DNA from: a plasmid
Length of the DNA stretch: 64,000 nt
Sequence record: NZ_CP104760.1
Direction: 5' to 3' (one strand)
A program made the position numbers and the translations under genes. Positions within the stretch are counted from its first letter, which is position 1, and each line of letters starts with the position of its first letter. Below, one piece after another: positions 1 through 53,191 of the stretch. Under the pieces are notes generated by a model. The model searched no databases. It was not told where the DNA came from and saw only the letters and a list, made by a program, of their open reading frames with translations.

Positions 1-1864
1 TCAAACCGGCGCGGGTGGTTACGTAAATCAGGAGGCGATCAACAGCTGGCAGGCGTCAGCGTCGGTGTCGGCCAGCCTCTACAGCCATGATGATTATAAC
101 TATCTGCAATCGAACGCCGACCTCTCCGCCACGATGCAGATCGCCGACGCCCGCTCGCCGGCGAATACCAAAATCACCGAGTGGCCGGGACGCTATCCCC
201 ATCAGTCAGAGGGAAACGACTATTCACAGATCCGCCAGCAGGAATATGGCGCGCGACAGCAGCAAATTGAAGGCGCGGGCGATGCGTTCGGCCTGGCGCC
301 AGGCTACACCTTTACGCTCTGTATGGCGCCGCGCGCCGCAGATGAAGGAAAAACCTTTCTGATTACCCGGGTCGATTACCACCTGGAAGAGAACAGCTAC
401 GCCAGTAACGATCAAGACCACAATATCCATCGCTTCGACTTCTGCGTTATTCCAGCGACGGTGGTCTGGCGTCCGGCGCGCGTCACGCCCTGGCCGCGCA
501 CCACCGGCCCGCAAACGGCGGTGGTCATCAAAGCCAGCGACGCCAGCAAAGGCGACGGCGACCATATCTCCACCGATCAGTATGGTCGCGTGCGGGTTAA
601 ATTCCGCTGGTTCAGAGCGGAAGATGAAACCCGGCTTCACTCCTGCTGGCTGCGCGTCTCAAGCGGCTGGGCCGGGAGCCAGTATGGCACGTATCAGATC
701 CCGCGCGTCGGCGAAGAGGTGGTGGTCGATTTTATTAACGGCGACCCCCACACGCCGGTGGTGACTGGGCGAGTCTATAACGATTTGCAGACCCTGCCGA
801 TTTCTGAACACCTGGTGACGGAAGCCAGCACCAGCGATATTGCCAGCGGTGACAGCGTAACGGCGGAGAGCGCCGCCGAGTGGAATTACGCTAAAAGTGG
901 CATCTGGACGCGTACGCTCGGCAGCCAGGATGTTAACGACGGCAATTTCCTCACCTTTGACGACACCGAAGGCGAACAGTCGGTCGATCTGCACGCCGCG
1001 AAGAAGCTGAATATCTCCGCCAAGGACGCGGTCAAAATCTACTCCGCCAGGGCGGGCGACGACGCGATAAAAGTCTGGTCGCCCGGCCAGGTTTACATTC
1101 AGAGCGAAGATACCTTAAACACCAGCGCGCCGACGCAGAAACACAGCATTCGCGGCAGCTACTACACCATCAGCGGCGCCAACTTCACCACTAACGGCAT
1201 CGCCTTAACCATTAATGGCGTCAACGGCACCATCAATGCCGTCAGCAGCCTGCAGGCGACGACGACGGAATTCACTGCCAAAGGCTTATCCATGGAAGTC
1301 ACCGGCGTGAAGCACGCCAAAACCTATTCTGAAATAAAAAAGAACGTCAATGAGATCAAAGAGGTCAACCGGCAACTGGTCTTCGCCTCTTTGATCTCGA
1401 TTATGAATGGCGGCGGCGGCGCGTTGCCGAATGAGAATGAGCGGACGGTGACCAGCCAGCTGGACAAGCTGAAAGCGAAAGTGAAATGGAAAGGGAAAAG
1501 CAACGAAAGCGCCGCCGGTTCGCGACCGCCTTCGCAGGCGAGTAACGCCTCGCAGGGGAGTAACGCTTCGCAGGCGAGCAATGCTTCGCAGGCAAGTAAC
1601 GCCTCACAGGCAAGCAACGCTTCGCAGGCAAGTAACGCCTCCCAGGCGAGCAATGCTTCGCAGGCAAGCAATGCCTCGCAGGCAAGTAATGCTTCCCAGG
1701 CGAGTAACGCTTCTCAGGCGAGCAATGCCTCGCAGGCAAGTAACGCCTCACAGGCGAGCAATGCTTCGCAGGCAAGCAATGCCTCGCAGGCAAGCAACGC
1801 TTCGCAGGAGAGCTTCCAGACGGCGCGCACCAGTCAATCGACACCCGGTGGAGAAGGCGCTTAG
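1..1864 (+). CDS. vgrG: T6SS spike protein VgrG (5'-truncated by window edge) with C-terminal Ser/Ala/Asn/Gln hexapeptide repeat extension
   Basis: The in-frame ORF runs from the window edge (frame 2) to the stop at 1864. The gp5-like VgrG region (…GRVRVKFRWF…QIPRVGEEVVVDFINGDP…VVTGRVYN) is followed by beta-helical repeats. The C-terminus carries about 15 copies of (S/Q)ASNAS. A DUF2169 gene follows immediately. Confidence 0.85.
   Translation, partial: QTGAGGYVNQEAINSWQASASVSASLYSHDDYNYLQSNADLSATMQIADARSPANTKITEWPGRYPHQSEGNDYSQIRQQEYGARQQQIEGAGDAFGLAPGYTFTLCMAPRAADEGKTFLITRVDYHLEENSYASNDQDHNIHRFDFCVIPATVVWRPARVTPWPRTTGPQTAVVIKASDASKGDGDHISTDQYGRVRVKFRWFRAEDETRLHSCWLRVSSGWAGSQYGTYQIPRVGEEVVVDFINGDPHTPVVTGRVYNDLQTLPISEHLVTEASTSDIASGDSVTAESAAEWNYAKSGIWTRTLGSQDVNDGNFLTFDDTEGEQSVDLHAAKKLNISAKDAVKIYSARAGDDAIKVWSPGQVYIQSEDTLNTSAPTQKHSIRGSYYTISGANFTTNGIALTINGVNGTINAVSSLQATTTEFTAKGLSMEVTGVKHAKTYSEIKKNVNEIKEVNRQLVFASLISIMNGGGGALPNENERTVTSQLDKLKAKVKWKGKSNESAAGSRPPSQASNASQGSNASQASNASQASNASQASNASQASNASQASNASQASNASQASNASQASNASQASNASQASNASQASNASQASNASQASNASQESFQTARTSQSTPGGEGA
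1532..1806 (+). repeat. In-frame tandem repeat of an 18-bp unit (consensus tcgcaggcgagtaacgcc, about 15 imperfect copies) encoding (SQASNA)n at the VgrG C-terminus
   Basis: Direct reading shows the unit repeated with synonymous third-position variation (agt/agc, aac/aat, gcc/gct). It generates spurious ORFs on the other frames and strand. Confidence 0.9.
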
Positions 1865-1872
1865 CCGCTGTT

Positions 1873-4353
1873 ATGAAAATCATTAAACCACGCCACCTGG
1901 GCTTGTTACCGCGCCCCTTCCGTTGGCAGCGCCAGCACTATCTCGGCGTCGCCGTTATGGCGATGATAAATATGGATGCGCTGCCGCGCCTGCTGACCGA
2001 GCAGGCGCTATGGAATCTGCTGCCAGAGGCGCTGCAGTCGCCCGATGGCGTGCTCGATCACGGCCTGCCTAAACCGCACCCGGAGTTTCTCGCCAGCGGC
2101 TTTGCCTTTCCGCCCGGCGGCGCGGCATCGCACTGTATCGCCCGCATCCAGGTAGCCGATCGGGAAAAAACGCTGCACGTTTACGGCGATCGCCAGCGGC
2201 GGGAGGATGGCCTCAGCGCACCGCAGCCTTTTACGCAGATGCCGCTCGACTGGCAACATGCGTTGGGCGACGCAGGCGACAGCGAAAATCCGCTGGGCAA
2301 GGCGATACCCAACGTCGAGGCGGCCGCGCCGCTGCTGATCCAGCCCGGCGCGGGCGCGCTTCCTGCCAGCTTTAACGCGGTGCCGTTAAGCGCGCCGCGT
2401 CGCCTGCGCCACGTTGGCAGCGCCTTTGACGAGGCCTGGCTGGCGCATGACTATCCTGGCTTCGCCCGCGATGCCGACCGACGCCTGTTTAACCAGGGCG
2501 ATGCGGATCAGCGCTGGGACGATCGCGACGCCCTGCCCGCTGGCGCCGCCTGGCGCATTGAAAACATGCATCCAGATAAATCGCTGCTTGAGGGATGCCT
2601 GCCGCCGTGGCAGGCACGCTGTTTCGTGGTGCGTCAGCATACCCACGGCGAGATGTTTGAAGCGATCCCGCTGCGCGCCACGACGCTGCACTTTTTCCCT
2701 CATCTGGAGCGCATTGTGATGATCTGGCATGGCGAGCTGGCGATCCGTGAAGATGACGCTGCAGACGTGCTCACCACGGTCGCAGCGCTCGAGTCGATCC
2801 ACCAGCCGCGCACGCCCGAAGCCTATGAAGAGATCACGCGGCAACGCAGCGACCCCGAACGCTCGGTGCTGCTTGCGTTACGCGACGGCGAGTTGCTGCC
2901 CCCAGGCAGCGCCATTACGGATGACGAGCCTGAACCGCCTCCCGGCCCGACAGATCGCAACCTTGCGCGCTGGGAAACGGCGCAGCGCCAGCAGCTGCGG
3001 CATGCGCACAGCGACAGCGGGATGGATATAGATGCGCTGGCGCCCACCCGACCGCGCGCTCCGACGGTGCCGCTGGAGGATCTGCATGATTATATCGACG
3101 CGCAGGATCGCGCCGCGCAGCAGCAGCTGGCGCAGATGATAACGCGCTATCAGCAGGAAGCGGCGCTGGCTCCGCCCGCCGCCAGACCGGCCGCCGCGAT
3201 AGAGACCTATCGCAGCCAGCGCGCCGCGTTTGACGAGAACGCGCAGCAGCAGCCGATGGATGACCGTCAGCGTACGTTCAGCTCTCAGGCGCTGCGTGAC
3301 AGCTACCGCTTTAATGCTCATCAGCTGAGCGCGCCCGAGCGCCTGACGCCCGCGCAGTCGGCGCAGTTGCGTCAGGCGGTGCTGACGCGCGATGGCGACT
3401 GCCGCGAGATGGATCTCACCGGCGCGGATCTGTCAGGGCTTGACCTGCGCGACACCGACTTCAGCGGCGCGCTGCTGGAGAATGTCGATTTCAGCCACTG
3501 CCAGCTCGACGGCAGCCTGTTCAGCAATGCCGTGCTGACGCGCGCAGAACTGCATCGCTGCTCAGCCCGCGCCTGCGCCTTCGATAATGCCAGCCTGGCT
3601 CTGGCCCAGTGCTGTTACGCCGACTTTAGCGATTCAGTCTTCAGCGAGACGGAGTGCCGGGATCTGATGCTGGAACAGTGCGTTTTCGATCGCGCCACCC
3701 TCAGTGACGTAATGCTGACACAGGCGAGCCTGGCGCACTGCCGCTTTCATCATGCGCAGATCGTCAATGCCCATTTCAGCGAGCTGACGCTGCAGGCGCT
3801 CGACTTCAGTCACGCCACGCTGCGCAAAGTCTATTTCGTCGAGTGCCATCTGCTGGCGCTCAGTTTCGAACAGGCGCGCCTGACGGCGGTGGGCTTCGTC
3901 GACTGTCAGGCGCCAGAAATCTGTTTTCATCAGGCGCAGCTGCATACTTCGCTGTTTGTCACCGATACGGCCCTGATCCGCGCCGACTTCAGCGGCGCCA
4001 CGCTGACGCAGTGCAATCTGCGGGAGACGCGGCTGGCGCAGGCGAACTTTTCTCACGCCATGCTGATCAACAGCGACCTCAGCGGCGCGGACTGTACGCA
4101 GGCGGATATGCGGCGGATGCAGGCCAGGGAGTGCCAGTTTACCCGTGCGGATTTGACGCGGGCGACGCTGGCGGAGAGCGACCTGATCGGCGCCTCCTTC
4201 TCAAAATCTCAGCTGCAGGGATGTGATTTCAGCGGCTGCAACCTGTTCCGCGCCGACCTCTCGCTTAGCGTGCGCGATGCGACGACGCGCTTCGAAGAGG
4301 CCTGGCTTAACGGCATGAAAACCGCGCCGCAGCGCGACGAGGAGCATTCGTGA
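1873..4353 (+). CDS. DUF2169-domain protein with C-terminal pentapeptide-repeat region (VgrG-associated adaptor-like)
   Basis: The N-terminal region is typical of DUF2169 proteins found directly downstream of vgrG. The C-terminal third consists of A(D/N)LSGxxLxx pentapeptide repeats. Confidence 0.75.
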   Translation: MKIIKPRHLGLLPRPFRWQRQHYLGVAVMAMINMDALPRLLTEQALWNLLPEALQSPDGVLDHGLPKPHPEFLASGFAFPPGGAASHCIARIQVADREKTLHVYGDRQRREDGLSAPQPFTQMPLDWQHALGDAGDSENPLGKAIPNVEAAAPLLIQPGAGALPASFNAVPLSAPRRLRHVGSAFDEAWLAHDYPGFARDADRRLFNQGDADQRWDDRDALPAGAAWRIENMHPDKSLLEGCLPPWQARCFVVRQHTHGEMFEAIPLRATTLHFFPHLERIVMIWHGELAIREDDAADVLTTVAALESIHQPRTPEAYEEITRQRSDPERSVLLALRDGELLPPGSAITDDEPEPPPGPTDRNLARWETAQRQQLRHAHSDSGMDIDALAPTRPRAPTVPLEDLHDYIDAQDRAAQQQLAQMITRYQQEAALAPPAARPAAAIETYRSQRAAFDENAQQQPMDDRQRTFSSQALRDSYRFNAHQLSAPERLTPAQSAQLRQAVLTRDGDCREMDLTGADLSGLDLRDTDFSGALLENVDFSHCQLDGSLFSNAVLTRAELHRCSARACAFDNASLALAQCCYADFSDSVFSETECRDLMLEQCVFDRATLSDVMLTQASLAHCRFHHAQIVNAHFSELTLQALDFSHATLRKVYFVECHLLALSFEQARLTAVGFVDCQAPEICFHQAQLHTSLFVTDTALIRADFSGATLTQCNLRETRLAQANFSHAMLINSDLSGADCTQADMRRMQARECQFTRADLTRATLAESDLIGASFSKSQLQGCDFSGCNLFRADLSLSVRDATTRFEEAWLNGMKTAPQRDEEHS

Positions 4354-5408
4354 ACGGGATGACGGCTGAGGCGGTCGAGCGCGCCATCCAGCACGGCGAG
4401 ATGATCTATCAGGTCGGGCTGCAGGGCCTGGACTTCAGCGGACGCGATCTCTCCGGCGGCTCTTTTATCGAGGTCGACTTAACCGGCGCACGCCTGACAG
4501 ACTGCAATCTGCATGAGACGCGCTTCAGCGACTGCTGCCTGCGCGGCAGCGATTTTTCAGGCAACAGGCTAGAGGAGACGCTGTTCAACCAGTGCGTTAT
4601 GACCGGCGCGCGCTTCAGCGATTGCGGCCTCTACCAGTGTCTGTTCAGCCAGTGTCAGCTTGAAGAAAGTCAGTTCGACGCCAGCGCGCAGATCGGCACG
4701 CAGTTCCTGGGCGGCTCGCTTAGCGACAGCGATTTTCAGCACGCCGCGCTGCAAGGATGCGGCTTCAGCGATCTGGGACATTTAACGCTCCAGCTTGCCG
4801 GGTGCTGGTGCGAGCAGGGTTCCTTTATGAACGCCGACCTGCGTCAGGCGGACTTTAGCGCGGCGCGCTTCTCGCTCACGACCTTTTTCGCCTGCGACCT
4901 GCGGCTGCAAACGCTGGACGGCGTGGCGTTTAACCAGTGCCAGTTTACGCAAAGCCAGCTGGACGGCGCCAGCTTCCACCAGGCGATCCTGAGCCAGTGC
5001 GGTCTCAGCGGTCTGTCGCTACGCCAGGCCAGGCTGACGCAGGTGCAGGCGCAGCAAACGCTGTTTAACGCCGCCGATATGACCGGCTGTGACTGCCGCG
5101 ACGCGCAGTTTGCTCAGGCCAACTTTGCCGACGCGATTCTGACCGGCTGCGATTTCAGCCGCAGCGATCTACAGCGCGCCGTGCTGGCGCGCAGCCGTGC
5201 CGTTCAGACGCGCTTCGACGGCTGCGATATGACCTGGGCGGACTGCACCAGGGCGCAAATGGATGAGGCGCAGTTTAACGACGCGCAGTTCGGGCACACC
5301 CGCTTCCACCGCGCCAGCACGCACCAGAGCGAATTCACCTCGCGCAGCGGTATTATTGAACGGGATGAAGCGCTGTTTGCAGCAGAGGAGTGGAGCCGCC
5401 AGCGTTAA
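4350..5408 (+). CDS. Pentapeptide-repeat protein (T6SS/VgrG-associated)
   Basis: 352 aa made almost entirely of pentapeptide repeats (…DLSGGSFIEVDLTGARLTDCNLHETRFSDCCLRGSDFSG…). GTG start with GAGGAG SD 5 nt upstream; overlaps the previous stop. Confidence 0.75.
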   Translation: MNGMTAEAVERAIQHGEMIYQVGLQGLDFSGRDLSGGSFIEVDLTGARLTDCNLHETRFSDCCLRGSDFSGNRLEETLFNQCVMTGARFSDCGLYQCLFSQCQLEESQFDASAQIGTQFLGGSLSDSDFQHAALQGCGFSDLGHLTLQLAGCWCEQGSFMNADLRQADFSAARFSLTTFFACDLRLQTLDGVAFNQCQFTQSQLDGASFHQAILSQCGLSGLSLRQARLTQVQAQQTLFNAADMTGCDCRDAQFAQANFADAILTGCDFSRSDLQRAVLARSRAVQTRFDGCDMTWADCTRAQMDEAQFNDAQFGHTRFHRASTHQSEFTSRSGIIERDEALFAAEEWSRQR

Positions 5409-5479
5409 ATTATTTCGCCGCGTGCGACGGCGATTATAAAAAATTTATTATGCCATATTTATTATTGACGATTGACGCT

Positions 5480-5508
5480 GCGGCCTTAAAGAGGCCGCTT
5501 TTGCTTTT
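5480..5508 (+). terminator. Rho-independent terminator after the pentapeptide-repeat gene
   Basis: Stem GCGGCCT / AGGCCGC with loop TAAAG, followed by TTTTGCTTTT. Confidence 0.6.
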
Positions 5509-6241
5509 GTGTGAATTAAATATTTATGACAGAAGGCTGAGAAGATCCGTTAGTCAGTGACGGAGATAATTAACCTGTGAAATGATATTCACTGTTTTCC
5601 TTTGCTGGCCTTATATTATTCGGACTAAATGGCTGTGTATTGCTGAAAATTAACGCCTGTTTCAAACGGGTGTCATAAAGGCTGCGCTAACCAGATATTT
5701 ACTATGCTGTTTCAGTATCGGATATCTTTCAATATATCATTGATTTTTATAGCTTTGATTTTATTTAATTCAGATTTAAATTTAATTATGACATTTACAT
5801 TAAGTTTATATGAATATTTTCCCGGGCTATTTATTAAGAGTATTCCCATCTTCACAGGTGCCAGCGAATAATGTAAATATGTTCCCCGGTTAGTGTATTT
5901 ATTGAGTAAATTATTTCGCATCATGAACGCTGCGTATGCGCCACGCCTCTATTTATTCTGGCGGAGCTGTTTGCGTCTTTTTACTGGCGGCAAAAAATCA
6001 AAATATATTACCTGAGGGTTATTGTTTCTTCTATGCGCCTCTTTTTAACGTGCAGTTTATTCGCCCCGACAGGCTTTGCAGCAGAAAGAATCGCCTTTAT
6101 TTGCCGTCAGTCTCTGAAAAAAGCGGCTAATCACGCTGTTATCGATGCGCGTGGAAATAACCGCGTCGGCGCAGGAAAAACCGTTACGCCGCGCCTCCCC
6201 TGTTTCGTGCCATTCCCTTTCGTCGATTGTGAGAGTTCGCT

Positions 6242-6850
6242 ATGAGCAAAAAAGAGAACACCCTCTCCATGCCGCTGCGGTTGCCTGCGCAGGCGGAGGG
6301 CGTAGTGGTCGCCCCGCTGTCCGAAAACAGCGTCGAGGTGGAGCTGCAGGGACGTCGCTGGCGCACGCAGCGCGCCGCCAGCTGCCTGCTGACGCCGGAG
6401 CCGGGAGACCGGGTGCTGCTGGCCAACCTTAACCATCAACTCTGGCTGCTGGCGGTGCTGGAGCGGGCGCAGCCCGAACAGACGGCGCAGCTCGGCTGCG
6501 GCAGCGATCTGCATCTCGCCTGCGGCGGCGCGCTCACGCTTAGCAGCCAGCAGTTCAGCCTGAAAGCCGCGCAGGGCGAGTGCGATATCGACAGCCTGCG
6601 CTATCGCGGCCAGTCGGTTTCCGCCTGGATCAGCGTCGGCCGCTTCTTCGGCAAACAGTGTGAAAGCGTCTGGGAGAGCCTCAGCCAGTTTAGCCAGCGG
6701 CTGCTGCGCAAAACCGCACAGTGCGAACAGGTTCGTGCAGGCCAGCTTGACGTCAAAACCGAAGAGTTCACCCGACTCCATTCGCGCAACACCCTGATCA
6801 GCAGCACGTCGCTGACCAAGGTCGACGCCAAACAGATTCACATGGGCTAA
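6242..6850 (+). CDS. DUF3540-domain protein (T6SS-associated)
   Basis: 202 aa. Sequence and neighbourhood (after vgrG-DUF2169-PRP, before a DUF4150 PAAR-like gene) match the conserved vgrG-linked module. Confidence 0.65.
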   Translation: MSKKENTLSMPLRLPAQAEGVVVAPLSENSVEVELQGRRWRTQRAASCLLTPEPGDRVLLANLNHQLWLLAVLERAQPEQTAQLGCGSDLHLACGGALTLSSQQFSLKAAQGECDIDSLRYRGQSVSAWISVGRFFGKQCESVWESLSQFSQRLLRKTAQCEQVRAGQLDVKTEEFTRLHSRNTLISSTSLTKVDAKQIHMG

Positions 6851-6863
6851 GGGAGAAGCGGAT

Positions 6864-7244
6864 ATGTTTGCCAATTGCCAACGCGGCGGCTGCGACCAGG
6901 CGGTCAGCGACGTCTGCAAAGCGCCTGCGCCGACGACCTTCGTCAATATCGCCAGCGGCAGCCTGGCGGTGCCTACGGCGCCGACCATCCTCTTCGCCGG
7001 CATGCCGGCCCATAACATGACCACGCTGATCCCCGTCAGTCAGGGAGATGAAGCGGGCGTGCTCGGCGGGGTGATCTCGAACGTGATCCTTGGCCCTTCG
7101 CGCCACCTGACCGGCTGCTCCACCTTACTGCTGCAGGGATCGCCCGCGACACGCATGGGCAGCACTACCCTGCAGAACCTGAACAACGCGCCAGGCGTCC
7201 GTCTGACGCCCAGCCAGACCACTATCGAACTGCTGGCGCGATAA
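6864..7244 (+). CDS. DUF4150 (PAAR-like) domain protein, no toxin extension
   Basis: 126 aa with the PAAR-like pattern (GSLAVPTAPTILFAGMPAHNMTTLIPVSQGD…) and position in the vgrG module. Confidence 0.65.
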   Translation: MFANCQRGGCDQAVSDVCKAPAPTTFVNIASGSLAVPTAPTILFAGMPAHNMTTLIPVSQGDEAGVLGGVISNVILGPSRHLTGCSTLLLQGSPATRMGSTTLQNLNNAPGVRLTPSQTTIELLAR

Positions 7245-7250
7245 CACTCT

Positions 7251-7754
7251 ATGGAAGCTCGGTTACCCCTTATGAAAAAGATGATATCTGGCGTGGTGAT
7301 TGCGTTAGCGCTCAGCGGCTGTAACGCGCCGCCGGTGAAATCTCAGGAGAAGCTGGAAACCAGCGTAGTGGACGGAACGACCCTGGTGCATCGCCACGAG
7401 ATCGGCGCGCCGAAAACCTTCACGCCGGTTTATCAGGCCTATCGCGCGCTCTATGCGGCGTCGGTGATGAGCACGCCGGGCTTCCAGGGAAAACGGGTCG
7501 GGACGCTTAAAAACGGCGAGCTTTACCAGGTACTGGGTCGGGTAGAAAACAACTGGCTGGCGATCTCCGACAGCCCGGAGCTGCAGCTGACCGGCTACGT
7601 CGAGTTTAAGGCGGGCGTGCCCTCAGCGCGCTATGACGCCACCGTAACCGGCGCGCCACCCGTATCGCGGCGCCCCGCCCGGCAGTGCATCGGCGTCGGC
7701 AACGGCGACAGCGCCTGCCGTAAAGGCCGTTCCGCCACCTGGATCATTCAATAG
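7251..7754 (+). CDS. Lipoprotein with SH3b-like domain (T6SS-linked, function unknown; start may be 7272)
   Basis: Signal peptide plus lipobox (IALALSGC). SH3-like stretch (GELYQVLGRVENNWLAI). Lies between the PAAR-like gene and tssJ. Confidence 0.6.
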   Translation: MEARLPLMKKMISGVVIALALSGCNAPPVKSQEKLETSVVDGTTLVHRHEIGAPKTFTPVYQAYRALYAASVMSTPGFQGKRVGTLKNGELYQVLGRVENNWLAISDSPELQLTGYVEFKAGVPSARYDATVTGAPPVSRRPARQCIGVGNGDSACRKGRSATWIIQ

Positions 7755-30714: not shown

Positions 30715-31097
30715 CGACTGACGCTGCCGTTTTCCCGGAAAACCACATCGTCGCCGTGCGGTGTGGTTTTGGTAACCTGCAGGAACCAGGCGCTGTTATC
30801 GCTGCTGCCCTCTTCCGCCGGAGCCAGCACGTAGGTGTAGGGCGCCTGGCGGAAGATATAGCCGCGAAAGTCGCGCGACGGCCCGATATTCAACGTCGAG
30901 CCTTTCAGGGTCAGCTGGTGGTGATTATTTTTATTCACCGCATGGTAGGTGACCTGGTCGCACTCAATATCCTCGGCGGTGCATTTCCCCAGGGAGAGAT
31001 AGACGTTATAGCTTTTGCTCTGGAAAAAGGGCTTATTATCCTGCGCCAGAGAGTGAAATGTGCAGGCCAGCAGACATAGCGCCATCAGCTTTTTCAT
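30711..31097 (-). CDS. Small periplasmic protein, candidate immunity protein for the adjacent muramidase
   Basis: 128 aa; signal peptide MKKLMALCLLACTFHSLA with Cys pairs. Directly downstream of the lysozyme-like gene with a 4-bp overlap (ATGA). Confidence 0.5.
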   Translation of the reverse strand: MKKLMALCLLACTFHSLAQDNKPFFQSKSYNVYLSLGKCTAEDIECDQVTYHAVNKNNHHQLTLKGSTLNIGPSRDFRGYIFRQAPYTYVLAPAEEGSSDNSAWFLQVTKTTPHGDDVVFRENGSVSR

Positions 31098-31894
31098 ATT
31101 TTTAGATAAACTCCTTCATGGTATACCTTCAGTTCGCTTTTTCGCCGGTTAATTAGCCCGCGCATCGGTTTGCCGTGCGAAAGCGTATAACGCATCCAGG
31201 CGTTATCAAGGTTTTCGCCTGACTCACCGTTTATTATTTTCAAAACGGTGGAGTAGTAAAATCCAGCATGATGCCGATCGTCTCTGCTGCCGATATTGAA
31301 CGCGAAGATTAATAACGCGTCAAATTCGTTCTGGGTTAAATCCACCTTCACATAGTCGCGCACCGTCGCAATAAAGGGTTTCAGATCGCGCGCGAATAAT
31401 GCCTCGGCGTCGCTCTCTGAAATTCCCTCTTTATATTGCGCAAAATCGCTCTTACGGCTTATCCAGTGACCGTAACCGATGGTAGCGCCGCTGGTCCAGC
31501 TGTCGATAGTCATGGAGGTCTGGTCATCGTAGGGCAAGGTGTGCAGCTGCTCATACTGCATCAGCAGGCGCAGGCAGCGGTAGCTGGGCAGTATCTGGCG
31601 AGGCTGGCGCCGCGTGCCCTGCCGGTTCGTGCTGGTCGCGCCCTGCGGCCCGCGCGGCGGCGAGGCGTTTTGCGTCAGGTGCTGCAACGTTTTCCTGCCT
31701 GGCGTCACTATCCCGTCGGGCAGATGATAAAGACGTTTCTGGTAATCGATAATGGCTTTAAGGGTATTACTGCCGCAGATTCCGTCGACCCTGAGCGCAG
31801 GGAAGCCGTTTTCACGCAGTAATTTTTGCACGACGACGACATCCTGAGGCCGGTTGACCGCACCCTTACCTACCGGGGAAGTTATGGTTTCCAT
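31094..31894 (-). CDS. Peptidoglycan-binding-domain + lysozyme-like (phage/T4-type muramidase fold) protein, candidate T6SS Tge-type effector
   Basis: N-terminal PG_binding_1-like segment (VVVVQKLLRENGFPALRVDGICGSNTLKAIIDYQ). C-terminal lysozyme motifs (TIGYGHW…SESDAEALFARDL…LTQNEFDALLIFAFNIG…GLINRRKSELKVY). No signal peptide. The track ORF extends to a TTG at 31954; the ATG at 31894 is preferred. Confidence 0.6.
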   Translation of the reverse strand: METITSPVGKGAVNRPQDVVVVQKLLRENGFPALRVDGICGSNTLKAIIDYQKRLYHLPDGIVTPGRKTLQHLTQNASPPRGPQGATSTNRQGTRRQPRQILPSYRCLRLLMQYEQLHTLPYDDQTSMTIDSWTSGATIGYGHWISRKSDFAQYKEGISESDAEALFARDLKPFIATVRDYVKVDLTQNEFDALLIFAFNIGSRDDRHHAGFYYSTVLKIINGESGENLDNAWMRYTLSHGKPMRGLINRRKSELKVYHEGVYLKI

Positions 31895-32179
31895 CTGAGA
31901 TCCGTTAATATCAGAAAGGTTTGCCAGACTCGTGCGGCGCAAACTGATCCGCAACGCCTGACTTTATCCGCAACGTATGACAGCCAGATGAAATTTAACT
32001 TTTTATCCCCTTTTAATCGGCGGGAAAATAGAGCGAATGCGGCGTGCATTAATTTCGCCAGCCGCGCCTGTTGATATTTCTCTTTAATAATGTCGATGGG
32101 GCTGTTTAATTAATTGTCTCCAGGAATCTCCTGAAAATGCTTTTGCCTCTGCCTGGTTTGGACGCTATTTCCCACGCGA

Positions 32180-52439: not shown

Positions 52440-53129
52440 TCAAAATAAATCGCTCGTTCCAAATATACGATTAAGGTTCGTTTTCCCAACCTTAGTGACA
52501 AAAACGGCGCGGCTGTTTTTTTTCTTTATAATCCATTCTGATTTAACGAATCGATCTGCAAGAATATTTCCCAGAAAGCCGCCAAGGTGCGGGACGCGTT
52601 CAGTCCAGTCCATACACTGGATTGCAACTTTTTCTGGGATTGACTCCGGGCCAGCTGGAAGCAAATTATGATAGCTAAACCAGTCAGCCCCGTTACTGGT
52701 CAAATGAATAGTCTTAGAATGACCTTCAGTCTGAATGTAATGTAATTCGAGCAACTTTTGATAAATTAAAACGCCAAGATGTCCAGCCAGATGATTAAAA
52801 CAATAACGAGCCTGACATATTTCATTTTCAGGTAACTTCCGGTGTATTCCTTTACTACTGGCAAGATACATAACCGACTCTACAACAGAGGCTACATCAG
52901 AGGAGCTGAGCGTAAAATACTTAAATTTACCTTGCTTAAAGGTTTTCACAAGGCCGCTGTCAACAAGTGCTTTAAGATGAGCCGTTGCGGCTGAAGGCAG
53001 AAGGCCAGTTCCGTATGCCAGCTCTTTTGCCGTGAAATATCGTCCCTCCATCATCAGAACTAACATTTCAAGTCTGCGCTGATTCCCTAAGGCTATAGCT
53101 AACTGATTTAAAACATTTTTATTAAACAT
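52440..53129 (-). CDS. Winged-helix (ArsR/SmtB-like) transcriptional regulator with an extra C-terminal domain; low-GC island gene
   Basis: HTH segment LEMLVLMMEGRYFTAKELAYGTGLLPSAATAHLKALVDSGLV. AT-rich codon usage unlike the flanking mal genes. Divergent from the peptide/MccB-like operon. Confidence 0.6.
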   Translation of the reverse strand: MFNKNVLNQLAIALGNQRRLEMLVLMMEGRYFTAKELAYGTGLLPSAATAHLKALVDSGLVKTFKQGKFKYFTLSSSDVASVVESVMYLASSKGIHRKLPENEICQARYCFNHLAGHLGVLIYQKLLELHYIQTEGHSKTIHLTSNGADWFSYHNLLPAGPESIPEKVAIQCMDWTERVPHLGGFLGNILADRFVKSEWIIKKKNSRAVFVTKVGKTNLNRIFGTSDLF

Positions 53130-53191
53130 AGTTCATCCTTGACTGAATGGTTAAAACTTGAAACATATCCTGAAACGTTCTAATTGTATTT

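What the first reader, a model, noticed from the sequence alone, without database searches (positions are those of the whole stretch)
1532..1806. VgrG C-terminal extension made of ~15 tandem (S/Q)ASNAS hexapeptide repeats encoded by an 18-bp minisatellite
The last ~100 residues of VgrG are an almost pure tandem repeat, with synonymous-site variation between units (so it is old and selected, not an assembly artefact). Such low-complexity linkers at a VgrG C-terminus are unusual. It could act as a flexible tether or recognition element for the DUF2169 adaptor encoded next, and is a likely site of copy-number variation by slipped-strand or recombination events.
Basis: seen in the sequence. Interest (0 to 1): 0.55.

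Follow-up and report, generated by a model that had tools for sequence, protein, structure and literature searches.

The report
Variable hexapeptide-repeat tail on a VgrG spike
The spike protein (VgrG) of a plasmid-borne type VI secretion system in Pantoea piersonii ends in 14-20 exact copies of the peptide SQASNA; the copy number changes quickly between strains while the peptide stays fixed, so the tail is real and under selection, but its function is unknown.

Summary
Window 1532-1801 holds 15 in-frame 18-bp units encoding (SQASNA)15 near the C-terminus of VgrG. An invariant 20-residue end follows.

The window matches the ~278-kb Pantoea piersonii megaplasmid. Twelve assemblies give 7 tract haplotypes of 14-20 units. 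Their 32 DNA unit types encode only 2 peptides. Eight of 12 possible synonymous variants occur, against 1 of 42 nonsynonymous (p=4e-6). Two assemblies identical over 5.1 kb of flank differ by two units.

The tail starts after a hydrophobic segment and an NGGGG hinge. That is about where two related VgrGs (E. albertii plasmid, P0003) end. The Ca. P. formicae orthologue and two remote relatives carry unrelated polar tails.

The downstream genes form the published Tvp class III module (DUF2169-pentapeptide, pentapeptide, DUF3540, DUF4150).

My best reading (confidence about 0.4) is a hydrophilic, length-tunable spacer that carries a conserved C-terminal end. The exact peptide conservation leaves room for repeated modification sites or an ordered structure. 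I rate it a new variant of a known kind, of moderate interest.

The parts
2..1864 (+). 3' part of vgrG/tssI: 620 codons plus the stop. The first ~197 codons lie upstream of the window. The full protein is predicted to be 817 aa in this strain.
   Evidence: Pfam Phage_GPD (fragment residues 8-131, E=7e-23) and Phage_base_V OB domain (191-259, E=6e-17). Solved VgrG structures match fragment residues ~10-293. The same gene is annotated tssI in NZ_CP115897.1.
785..1405 (+). Post-OB 'neck', presumed to be the beta-prism, ending in the hydrophobic segment LVFASLISIM (1376-1405).
   Evidence: Only 3 hits in a library of 1.84 billion representative proteins and only P. piersonii among plasmids. No Pfam DUF2345 or Gp5_trimer_C hit. 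The E. albertii plasmid VgrG and P0003 end at the column of this hydrophobic segment; the E. cloacae plasmid VgrG runs ~25 mainly hydrophobic residues further.
1406..1420 (+). NGGGG glycine hinge, where the C-terminal extension starts.
   Evidence: Conserved as NGGGG in Ca. P. formicae and NGGAV in P0002. The BLASTP match to Ca. P. formicae (72.5% identity) ends here, and the tails beyond show no significant similarity.
1457..1498 (+). Lysine-rich segment QLDKLKAKVKWKGK, a possible amphipathic helix.
   Evidence: The only helix in the AlphaFold model (query residues 298-305), at low confidence, pLDDT about 45-50. Basic counterparts LDRIRAKK and ANKLRKLREE align in the two relatives.
1532..1801 (+). 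The minisatellite: 15 x 18 bp encoding (SQASNA)15, with unit 2 SQGSNA. It contains 15 N-A-S sequons.
1802..1861 (+). Unique C-terminal 20-mer SQESFQTARTSQSTPGGEGA. Its first 6 residues are a degenerate repeat unit.
   Evidence: The peptide is identical in all 12 assemblies, with one synonymous change in L010. It contains an acidic-residue-plus-Phe element that is also near the C-termini of the Ca. P. formicae (DDEFFDAQ) and P0002 (NDLFGE) tails. With only three sequences this is weak evidence.
1873..4353 (+). tvpAB: DUF2169 fused to a pentapeptide-repeat domain.
   Evidence: Pfam DUF2169 E=4e-54 and Pentapeptide E=1e-39. Gene naming follows PMC13373197.
4350..5408 (+). tvpB: pentapeptide-repeat protein.
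   Evidence: Pfam Pentapeptide_4 E=3e-40.
6242..6850 (+). tvpC: DUF3540.
   Evidence: Pfam DUF3540 E=1e-38.
6864..7244 (+). Small PAAR-like protein (DUF4150 / Tox-PAAR-like, also called the PIPY domain).
   Evidence: Pfam PF13665 E=6.5e-26. Annotated DUF4150 in NZ_CP115897.1.

Best explanation
The tract is a lineage-specific, rapidly resizing, in-frame minisatellite inside a C-terminal extension of a Tvp class III-associated VgrG spike protein.

Shown: the extension begins at a glycine hinge directly after the hydrophobic segment. The E. albertii plasmid VgrG and P0003 stop about there, and the E. cloacae one ~25 residues later. The extension consists of a lysine-rich segment, then 14-20 uncharged polar SQASNA units, then an invariant 20-residue end. 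The peptide is held constant by purifying selection. Units are gained and lost in steps of one or two, faster than point substitutions accumulate.

Inferred: the repeat acts as a hydrophilic, non-sticky spacer, one per chain and three per spike. It would leave the spike sideways at the junction between VgrG and the PAAR-like protein. It would either hold the conserved C-terminal end at a distance to reach a partner, or shield the hydrophobic tip and the basic segment until firing. Slipped-strand or unequal recombination between imperfect units would tune its length. The partner is unknown. It is not necessarily the DUF2169 protein.
For: The repeat and its reading frame are established. There are 7 haplotypes of 14-20 units in 12 assemblies, and 32 DNA unit types encode 2 peptides. 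Synonymous variants number 8 of 12 possible, nonsynonymous 1 of 42, Fisher p=4e-6. L005 and L011 show 0 differences in 1530 bp upstream and 3600 bp downstream, yet carry 14 and 16 units. In-register exact repeats of 23-44 bp are available as slippage substrates. The tract is uncharged and hydrophilic: the extension from the lysine-rich segment to the end has GRAVY -0.98 and is mostly S, A, Q and N. AlphaFold predicts no secondary structure and pLDDT 31-38 over the tail. The orthologue and two remote relatives keep a polar tail of about 100-180 residues with no sequence similarity, which is how spacers typically evolve. The C-terminal 20-mer is invariant within the species. There is precedent for variable VgrG C-terminal extensions acting as docking sites for adaptors (PMC11582642). 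A formal analogue is the staphylococcal Fbl/ClfA R-domain: an SDSDSA hexapeptide encoded by 18-bp units, 9-52 copies, with mostly synonymous polymorphism (PMC6533592).
Against: A purely entropic spacer should tolerate conservative replacements such as S/T, A/S, N/D or Q/E, yet none occurs in any unit of the 12 assemblies. This points to a sequence-specific requirement that the spacer model does not explain. The charge-hydropathy position of the tract is borderline, not clearly disordered (my calculation from the composition). The AlphaFold model was a monomer with a shallow alignment and was poor overall (mean pLDDT 42.5), so its low confidence over the tail is weak evidence. Two class III VgrGs on Enterobacteriaceae plasmids have no polar tail at all, and by published description neither does S. 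marcescens VgrG1, so a tail is not needed for the machine. No partner was identified. The C-terminal motif rests on three sequences.
Confidence: 0.4

Rival explanations
1. The repeat is an array of modification sites. Each unit supplies an N-A-S sequon (14-20 per chain) and two serines, which could be glycosylated or phosphorylated in the cytoplasm before firing. This would parallel glycosylation of the staphylococcal SD repeats by SdgA/SdgB.
For: Exact conservation of every residue despite free synonymous change fits a recognition motif. Every Asn is followed by Ala-Ser. A Ser/Thr kinase and a PP2C phosphatase are encoded in the cluster. SD-repeat glycosylation is documented (PMC3794999).
Against: No protein glycosyltransferase was found. 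No GT41 is annotated on the plasmid. The plasmid GT9 gene resembles generic LPS-type heptosyltransferases and no TibC-type enzyme appeared among its PDB matches. The GT1 'macrolide' glycosyltransferase upstream of vgrG is absent from the Ca. P. formicae locus. The chromosome was not searched, and the PLSDB gene table is incomplete. In my own knowledge, T6SS PpkA kinases are known to target Thr in Fha or TssL, not VgrG.
Confidence: 0.1
2. In the VgrG trimer the repeats fold into a regular structure, for example a thin three-chain beta-structure or a polar-zipper fibre. This would form whiskers or an extension at the spike tip, and copy number would set its length.
For: Perfect periodicity and strict residue conservation. 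The period is even, which would place S/A/N on one face of a strand and Q/S/A on the other (inference). The tract is uncharged and borderline on charge-hydropathy. VgrG is an obligate trimer.
Against: There is no Gly or hydrophobic core residue in the unit. AlphaFold gave no secondary structure, although only a monomer was modelled. No similar solved structure exists; the only PDB hit is a low-complexity artefact. Relatives have charged, clearly non-homologous tails. A glycine hinge and a basic segment separate the repeat from the prism.
Confidence: 0.12
3. This is the first reader's idea: the tail is the tether or recognition element that recruits the DUF2169 protein (TvpAB) encoded next.
For: The two genes are adjacent, 8 bp apart. 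TvpAB co-purifies with VgrG1 in S. marcescens (PMC13373197). The VgrG C-terminus determines effector specificity in A. tumefaciens (Bondage et al. 2016, cited in PMC11582642; the paper is not held in the library).
Against: Published genetics, the crystal structure and the models place the DUF2169 domain on the DUF4150/PIPY protein. In class III, TvpAB/TvpB wrap the prism tip plus the PAAR-like protein (PMC11883445, PMC13373197). S. marcescens VgrG1 binds TvpAB without any such tail. The tail shows no similarity between P. piersonii and Ca. P. formicae, while DUF2169 is 65% and the PAAR-like protein 86% identical. The E. albertii and E. cloacae class III VgrGs lack a polar tail.
Confidence: 0.1
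4. The tract is a nearly neutral expansion of low-complexity sequence in a dispensable tail, maintained by slippage rather than by function.
For: Turnover is very fast. The tails of relatives are unrelated, and some class III VgrGs have none. Some assemblies show split T6SS genes, which may indicate decay.
Against: The strong deficit of nonsynonymous variants (1 of 42 against 8 of 12, p=4e-6; counting transitions only, 0 of 12 against 6 of 6) contradicts neutrality. All 12 assemblies keep the frame and at least 14 units. The C-terminal end beyond the tract is invariant.
Confidence: 0.12

Closest known systems
VgrG1 of Serratia marcescens Db10 and its Tvp class III accessory module (Monlezun, Earl and Coulthurst 2026, PMC13373197); equivalent to 'synteny type C' of Sachar et al. 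2025 (PMC11883445)
   Same: vgrG is the first gene of a T6SS cluster. It is followed by tvpAB (DUF2169 plus pentapeptide repeats), tvpB, tvpC (DUF3540) and a small DUF4150 PAAR-like gene. The cluster also has PpkA, a PP2C phosphatase, TagH, TagF and TagJ. No recognisable toxin domain is present. A hydrophobic segment lies at the presumed prism tip.
   Different: S. marcescens VgrG1 is described as prism all the way to a hydrophobic C-terminus. Here a hinge and a ~150-residue extension with the minisatellite follow the hydrophobic segment. There is no vai1-like gene between vgrG and tvpAB. The neck sequence is almost unique, with 3 hits in 1.84 billion representatives.
[quoted passage not shown] 2016)
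   Same: A lineage-variable segment appended after the spike, and a plausible docking role for the conserved C-terminal end.
   Different: As far as the passages I read show, those extensions are not tandem repeats. No DUF4123 gene is annotated in the cluster or on the plasmid.
Staphylococcal SD-repeat R-domains (ClfA; Fbl of S. lugdunensis with the SDSDSA hexapeptide)
   Same: A hexapeptide encoded by 18-bp units, many DNA unit types that are mostly synonymous, copy number polymorphic between strains through slipped-strand mispairing, and a Ser-rich tract next to a functional end (PMC6533592). The SD repeats are glycosylated (PMC3794999).
   Different: These are Gram-positive cell-wall adhesins that are acidic and extracellular. 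There is no homology, only a formal and possibly functional analogy. In Fbl, 13 peptide types occur among 54 DNA types; here there are 2 among 32.
SSB C-terminal tail: a low-complexity linker plus an acidic, Phe-ending tip (from my own knowledge, not tested here)
   Same: A homo-oligomeric hub carrying a length-variable low-complexity linker that ends in a short conserved acidic/aromatic element used to recruit partners.
   Different: An unrelated protein and process. The motif here rests on three sequences.
Burkholderia VgrG-5 C-terminal domain (a class III VgrG with a characterised effector domain; mentioned in PMC13373197 and PMC6335564)
   Same: A Tvp class III VgrG that continues beyond the prism.
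   Different: [quoted passage not shown] Nothing in the passages I read describes it as a repeat array. Not compared by sequence here.

Membership tests
VgrG / TssI spike protein | gp27-like hub domain and gp5-like OB-fold | tested here: met
   Phage_GPD E=7e-23 and Phage_base_V E=6e-17. PDB VgrG structures match at E down to 5e-46.
VgrG / TssI spike protein | C-terminal beta-prism recognisable by a Pfam model (Gp5_trimer_C or DUF2345) | tested here: not met
   No such Pfam hit. The AlphaFold monomer was poor. Prism-like periodicity is inferred only from alignment to other class III VgrGs. Failing to match a model does not show that the prism is absent.
VgrG / TssI spike protein | Encoded within a T6SS gene cluster | tested here: met
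   tssJ, K, L, M, A, B, C, hcp, tssE, F, G and H lie downstream.
Tvp class III accessory system (PMC13373197) | TvpAB, a DUF2169 domain fused to a pentapeptide-repeat domain | tested here: met
   Window 1873-4353.
Tvp class III accessory system (PMC13373197) | Separate pentapeptide-repeat TvpB, long TvpC (DUF3540) and a small DUF4150 PAAR-like protein without a toxin domain | tested here: met
   Window 4350-5408, 6242-6850 and 6864-7244.
Tvp class III accessory system (PMC13373197) | Two-step assembly: a TvpC pre-complex that is later replaced by VgrG | not testable with these tools
   Needs biochemistry.
Specialised ('evolved') VgrG carrying an effector domain | A recognisable folded toxin or enzyme domain after the prism | tested here: not met
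   No Pfam domain beyond the OB fold apart from a spurious sub-threshold Plasmodium_HRP match. There is no genuine PDB match to the tail.
Variable-number tandem repeat (coding minisatellite) | Head-to-tail units whose copy number differs between strains | tested here: met
   14, 14, 15, 16, 16, 17 and 20 units in 7 haplotypes. A two-unit difference occurs on identical flanks.
Phase-variable contingency locus (on/off switching by frameshift) | Changes in repeat number shift the reading frame or the promoter spacing | tested here: not met
   The unit is 18 bp, and all 12 tracts are in frame with the same downstream end.
Intrinsically disordered linker | Lack of stable structure | tested here: inconclusive
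   Low pLDDT and no secondary structure, but in a poor monomer model. The composition is polar and uncharged, and charge-hydropathy is borderline (and my calculation).
Substrate of cytoplasmic N-glycosyltransferase (HMW1C/NGT type) or protein O-heptosyltransferase (BAHT) | An acceptor motif plus a cognate enzyme in the genome | tested here: inconclusive
   The N-A-S motif is present 15 times. No GT41 is annotated on the plasmid. The plasmid GT9 gene gave no TibC-type match among solved structures. The chromosome was not searched.

The most novel reading that the evidence does not exclude
The SQASNA array is a sequence-specific functional element rather than a passive spacer. It could be a multi-site substrate for cytoplasmic glycosylation (14-20 N-A-S sequons per chain, up to 60 per spike). 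Alternatively it could be an ordered three-chain 'whisker' at the tip of the T6SS spike, whose length is tuned by minisatellite slippage. Either would add a strain-variable surface or recognition feature to a secretion-system needle.
Probability: 0.15. Interest if true: 0.75.

Novelty: new variant of a known kind. Interest (0 to 1): 0.42.

Why it matters
VgrG C-termini are where T6SS spikes diversify to carry cargo. Class III Tvp systems were defined only recently, and the role of their VgrG tips is unsettled; a cryptic membrane-active C-terminus has been proposed for S. marcescens VgrG1. Here a class III VgrG continues past that tip into a tail that combines two properties. Its length is hypermutable, and its peptide sequence is strictly conserved. 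That combination is typical of stalks or modified repeat regions in surface adhesins, and I found no report of it for a T6SS spike in the literature I could search. If the tail has a function, it offers a simple handle, the number of units, for asking how much room the baseplate or membrane-complex cavity and the Tvp cap leave around the spike tip, and whether spike appendages act in the attacker or in the target. Practically, the tract is a single-locus typing marker for P. piersonii, an opportunistic species recovered from human blood. If the tail has no phenotype, it is a curiosity of repeat evolution.

Tried and rejected
1. A homology search that included the repeat was swamped by low-complexity candidates and returned only a truncated copy of the same protein.
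2. A word-indexed search with the neck alone found nothing. The exhaustive representative search found 3 hits, one of them a spurious repeat protein, P0004.
3. A search with the N-terminal part returned mostly partial VgrGs that were useless for comparing tails.
4. AlphaFold on residues 187-620 with 33 sequences gave mean pLDDT 42.5. I did not use it for fold searches and used it only as weak evidence on order and disorder.
5. A PDB search with the tail gave one 'significant' hit (9e5c, E=1e-33). It is an alanine/acidic-rich low-complexity match, and I rejected it. The Pfam Plasmodium_HRP hit is below the curated cut-off and was also rejected.
6. Scans for DNA encoding two consecutive SQASNA units found nothing in viral contigs, and only the same plasmid in JGI metagenomes. 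The repeat is therefore not a mobile module shared with phage tail proteins.
7. For the glycosylation lead I read the annotation of the whole plasmid and found no GT41. The GT9 gene is generic. The adjacency of the upstream GT1 gene is not conserved in Ca. P. formicae.
8. No DUF4123 adaptor is annotated on the plasmid.
9. E. coli genomes hold no match.
10. The contig carrying P0002 ends just after the gene, so its context is unknown. P0003 is an orphan vgrG next to IS91 and may be truncated.
11. The Bondage et al. 2016 paper is not held in the library.
Full report
**1. The observation**

Tandem Repeats Finder reports an 18-bp array at window 1527-1808 with 15.6 copies and score 310. Higher-order periods of 36 and 54 bp score better. 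The frame that starts at base 2 runs open to a stop at 1862-1864. In that frame, 1532-1801 is exactly 15 units encoding SQASNA, with unit 2 reading SQGSNA. A degenerate unit, SQESFQ, follows and opens a unique 20-residue end, SQESFQTARTSQSTPGGEGA. The repeat makes up 90 of the last 110 residues.

**2. The gene and the replicon**

The open frame is the 3' part of a vgrG/tssI gene.
- It has a Phage_GPD domain and the OB-fold Phage_base_V domain.
- It matches solved VgrG structures over fragment residues ~10-293.
- The first ~197 codons lie upstream of the window.

The first 5.5 kb of the window are 98.1% identical to a 278-kb non-mobilizable plasmid of Pantoea piersonii, NZ_CP115897.1. There the gene is annotated tssI and is 811 aa long. 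It is the first gene of a complete T6SS cluster:
- vgrG, then DUF2169 fused to pentapeptide repeats, a pentapeptide-repeat protein, DUF3540 and DUF4150;
- a lipoprotein, then tssJ, K, L, M, tagF, tssA, B, C and hcp;
- tagH, a PP2C phosphatase, tagJ, tssE, F, G, H and a Ser/Thr kinase.

The four genes after vgrG are the Tvp class III module defined in S. marcescens (TvpAB, TvpB, TvpC, Paar1; PMC13373197). This is the same arrangement as 'synteny type C' of Sachar et al. (PMC11883445).

**3. Copy number varies between strains**

I looked up the PAAR-like protein by exact sequence, and ran one genome scan and one metagenome scan. This recovered 11 further assemblies of the locus. Together with the window they give 7 distinct tract haplotypes of 14, 14, 15, 16, 16, 17 and 20 units.
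- All tracts are in frame and abut the same flanks.
- Identical haplotypes recur in independent assemblies: the 17-unit one in 4, the 14-unit one in 2 and the 20-unit one in 2. An assembly artefact is therefore very unlikely.
- The window's own 15-unit haplotype was seen only once.
- L005 and L011 have no difference in 1530 bp upstream or 3600 bp downstream, but carry 14 and 16 units. They differ by one two-unit block.
- L011 and L002 differ by one unit, with a chimeric unit at the junction.

The tract therefore changes length faster than point substitutions accumulate, in steps of one or two units. In-register exact repeats of 23-44 bp are available as substrates.

**4. The peptide is under selection**

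The 12 tracts contain 32 distinct 18-bp unit types but only two peptides. SQGSNA occurs only as unit 1 or 2.
- Of the 12 possible synonymous single-base variants of the consensus unit, 8 are present.
- Of the 42 possible nonsynonymous variants, 1 is present (Fisher p=4e-6).
- Counting transitions only, the figures are 6 of 6 against 0 of 12.
- Not one conservative replacement (S/T, A/S, N/D, Q/E) is seen.

Four synonymous sites sit near 50:50. As a result, codons that are rare in the cluster's genes are several-fold enriched in the tract: AGT 0.28 against 0.04, GCT 0.24 against 0.05, GCA 0.22 against 0.05. Neighbouring units are slightly more different than random ordering predicts, 3.10 against 2.84 +/- 0.11 differences (P=0.011). 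The simplest reading is an ancestral 36-bp double unit, matching the two commonest unit types, that was amplified and then shuffled. Selection against identical neighbouring units is an alternative. Because the variation lies at third positions of the VgrG frame, the overlapping ORFs on other frames and on the other strand are shadows, not genes.

**5. Anatomy of the C-terminus**

The region after the OB fold (fragment residues 262-508) is almost unique. It has 3 hits among 1.84 billion representative proteins, one of them spurious, and only P. piersonii among plasmids.

I aligned the C-termini of other class III VgrGs against the window.
- The E. albertii plasmid VgrG (744 aa) and the orphan VgrG P0003 end at the column of the hydrophobic segment LVFASLISIM (window 1376-1405).
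- The E. cloacae plasmid VgrG (761 aa) runs about 25 mainly hydrophobic residues further.
- Identity in this part of the alignment is low (14-28%), so the columns are approximate.
- This agrees with the published description of S. marcescens VgrG1, whose last 26 residues are largely hydrophobic (PMC13373197).

In P. piersonii the chain continues:
- an NGGGG hinge (1406-1420);
- a lysine-rich segment, QLDKLKAKVKWKGK (1457-1498), which is the only helix in the AlphaFold model and is predicted at low confidence;
- the repeat (1532-1801);
- the 20-mer (1802-1861).

**6. Relatives**

The Ca. Pantoea formicae orthologue aligns at 72.5% identity up to the hinge and has the same Tvp module. After the hinge its tail is unrelated: a basic segment, then (TPRQSQEQxREP)x3, then (NSS)x4, ending ...DDEFFDAQSGPA. 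P0002 is 42% identical over the neck and has a K/E/R/N-rich tail ending ...NDLFGE. A Variovorax class III VgrG (982 aa) has a hydrophobic segment, a Gly-rich hinge, a probable helix and ~140 polar, non-repetitive residues.

Polar tails after the hydrophobic tip are therefore an optional feature of this VgrG type that recurs in several lineages.
- Their sequences are not conserved. Between the two Pantoea species the tail shows no significant similarity, while the PAAR-like protein is 86% identical, TvpC 67%, the DUF2169 domain 65% and TvpB 54%.
- Only the Pantoea tails are repetitive, and only P. piersonii has a long perfect array.
- An acidic residue plus Phe lies near all three related C-termini (ESF, DEFF, NDLF). 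This is suggestive, but it rests on three sequences.

DNA encoding two consecutive SQASNA units occurs nowhere in the viral collection, and only on this plasmid in the metagenome collection.

**7. What it most likely does**

Shown:
- a strain-variable, in-frame array whose peptide is conserved;
- its position after the spike tip, followed by an invariant end.

Inferred:
- The three tails of the trimer leave the spike sideways where the PAAR-like protein caps the prism and where TvpAB/TvpB are modelled to wrap it (PMC13373197).
- They act as uncharged hydrophilic spacers. They would either present the C-terminal end to a partner or shield the hydrophobic and basic segments until firing.
- Slippage adjusts their length.

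I put this at about 0.4. The main objection is the strictness of the peptide conservation, which a passive spacer does not need.

Rivals:
- An array of modification sites (15 N-A-S sequons here, or Ser O-modification). No cognate enzyme was found on the plasmid, and the chromosome was not searched.
- An ordered three-chain structure. This could not be tested with a monomer predictor.
Published data place DUF2169 on the PAAR-like domain, and tail-less class III VgrGs exist (PMC11883445, PMC13373197).
- Neutral expansion, which the selection signature contradicts.

**8. Comparison with what is known**

The protein is a VgrG, and the locus is a Tvp class III system; those defining features were tested and met. 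It is not an 'evolved' VgrG with a recognisable effector domain. It is not a frameshift-type phase-variable locus, because the unit is 18 bp long. Variable VgrG C-terminal extensions are known docking sites for DUF4123 adaptors (PMC11582642), but none is annotated here.

The closest formal analogue is outside T6SS biology. The staphylococcal Fbl/ClfA R-domains have an SDSDSA hexapeptide encoded by 18-bp units, in 9-52 copies, with mostly synonymous unit diversity and slipped-strand turnover (PMC6533592). They are glycosylated by SdgA/SdgB (PMC3794999). Literature searches combining VgrG with terms for tandem repeats, disorder and low complexity found nothing relevant.

**9. Verdict**

The feature is real, reproducible and under selection. 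It is a new variant of a known kind: a VgrG C-terminal extension built from a hypervariable coding minisatellite. Its function is unknown and the mechanism I propose is only moderately supported. Interest is moderate (0.42). It would rise substantially if the tract proved to be modified or structured, or if changing its length altered T6SS function.

Noticed in passing
window 5409-6241: There is an ~830-bp AT-rich gap (GC 0.33-0.39 against 0.60-0.67 nearby) between tvpB and tvpC. It opens with a terminator-like hairpin (5480-5498) plus a T-run and contains promoter-like sites. Only a doubtful 64-codon ORF (5936-6130, no Pfam hit) lies in it. In Ca. P. formicae, tvpB and tvpC overlap and there is no gap. 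The gap may split the spike/Tvp genes into two transcription units or act as a regulatory island.
   Followed up: partly
window 7251-7754 (+): An extra lipoprotein gene (LPAM_1 lipobox, weak SH3_3 hit) lies between the PAAR-like gene and tssJ. No vai1/DUF3192-like immunity gene sits between vgrG and tvpAB, unlike in S. marcescens. The lipoprotein could be an immunity or accessory protein.
   Followed up: no
window 31094-31954 (-) and the small ORF next to it at about 30740-31130 (-): A phage-lysozyme-type glycoside hydrolase with a peptidoglycan-binding domain, plus an adjacent small hypothetical gene, lie immediately after the T6SS kinase gene. They are a candidate cargo effector and immunity pair for this T6SS.
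   Followed up: partly
L008 4940-7490 and 18354-19432; L005 14021-17635: In some assemblies T6SS genes are split into two ORFs: tvpAB and tssA in GCA_020092925.1, and tssM in ERZ27295920. These are either sequencing or assembly errors, or inactivation of the system in some strains.
   Followed up: no
L001 8908-10068 (upstream of the window): A GT1 'macrolide family' glycosyltransferase and an SDR oxidoreductase lie just upstream of vgrG in all P. piersonii assemblies. In Ca. P. formicae a LacI-type regulator occupies that position, so the adjacency is probably incidental.
   Followed up: yes
L022 2346-4580; L023 2171-4456; L024 2155-5103: Tvp class III modules also occur on conjugative IncF plasmids of Escherichia albertii and Enterobacter cloacae. 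Tblastn also found the DUF3540 gene on a Raoultella ornithinolytica plasmid and an uncultured-bacterium plasmid, whose context I did not inspect. The E. albertii and E. cloacae VgrGs end in a hydrophobic segment with no polar tail. A Variovorax replicon has a 982-aa VgrG with a polar, non-repetitive tail.
   Followed up: partly
window about 52440-53130 and the corresponding L016 36542-37185: A vapBC toxin-antitoxin pair is embedded between malQ and malM in the plasmid-borne maltose regulon.
   Followed up: no
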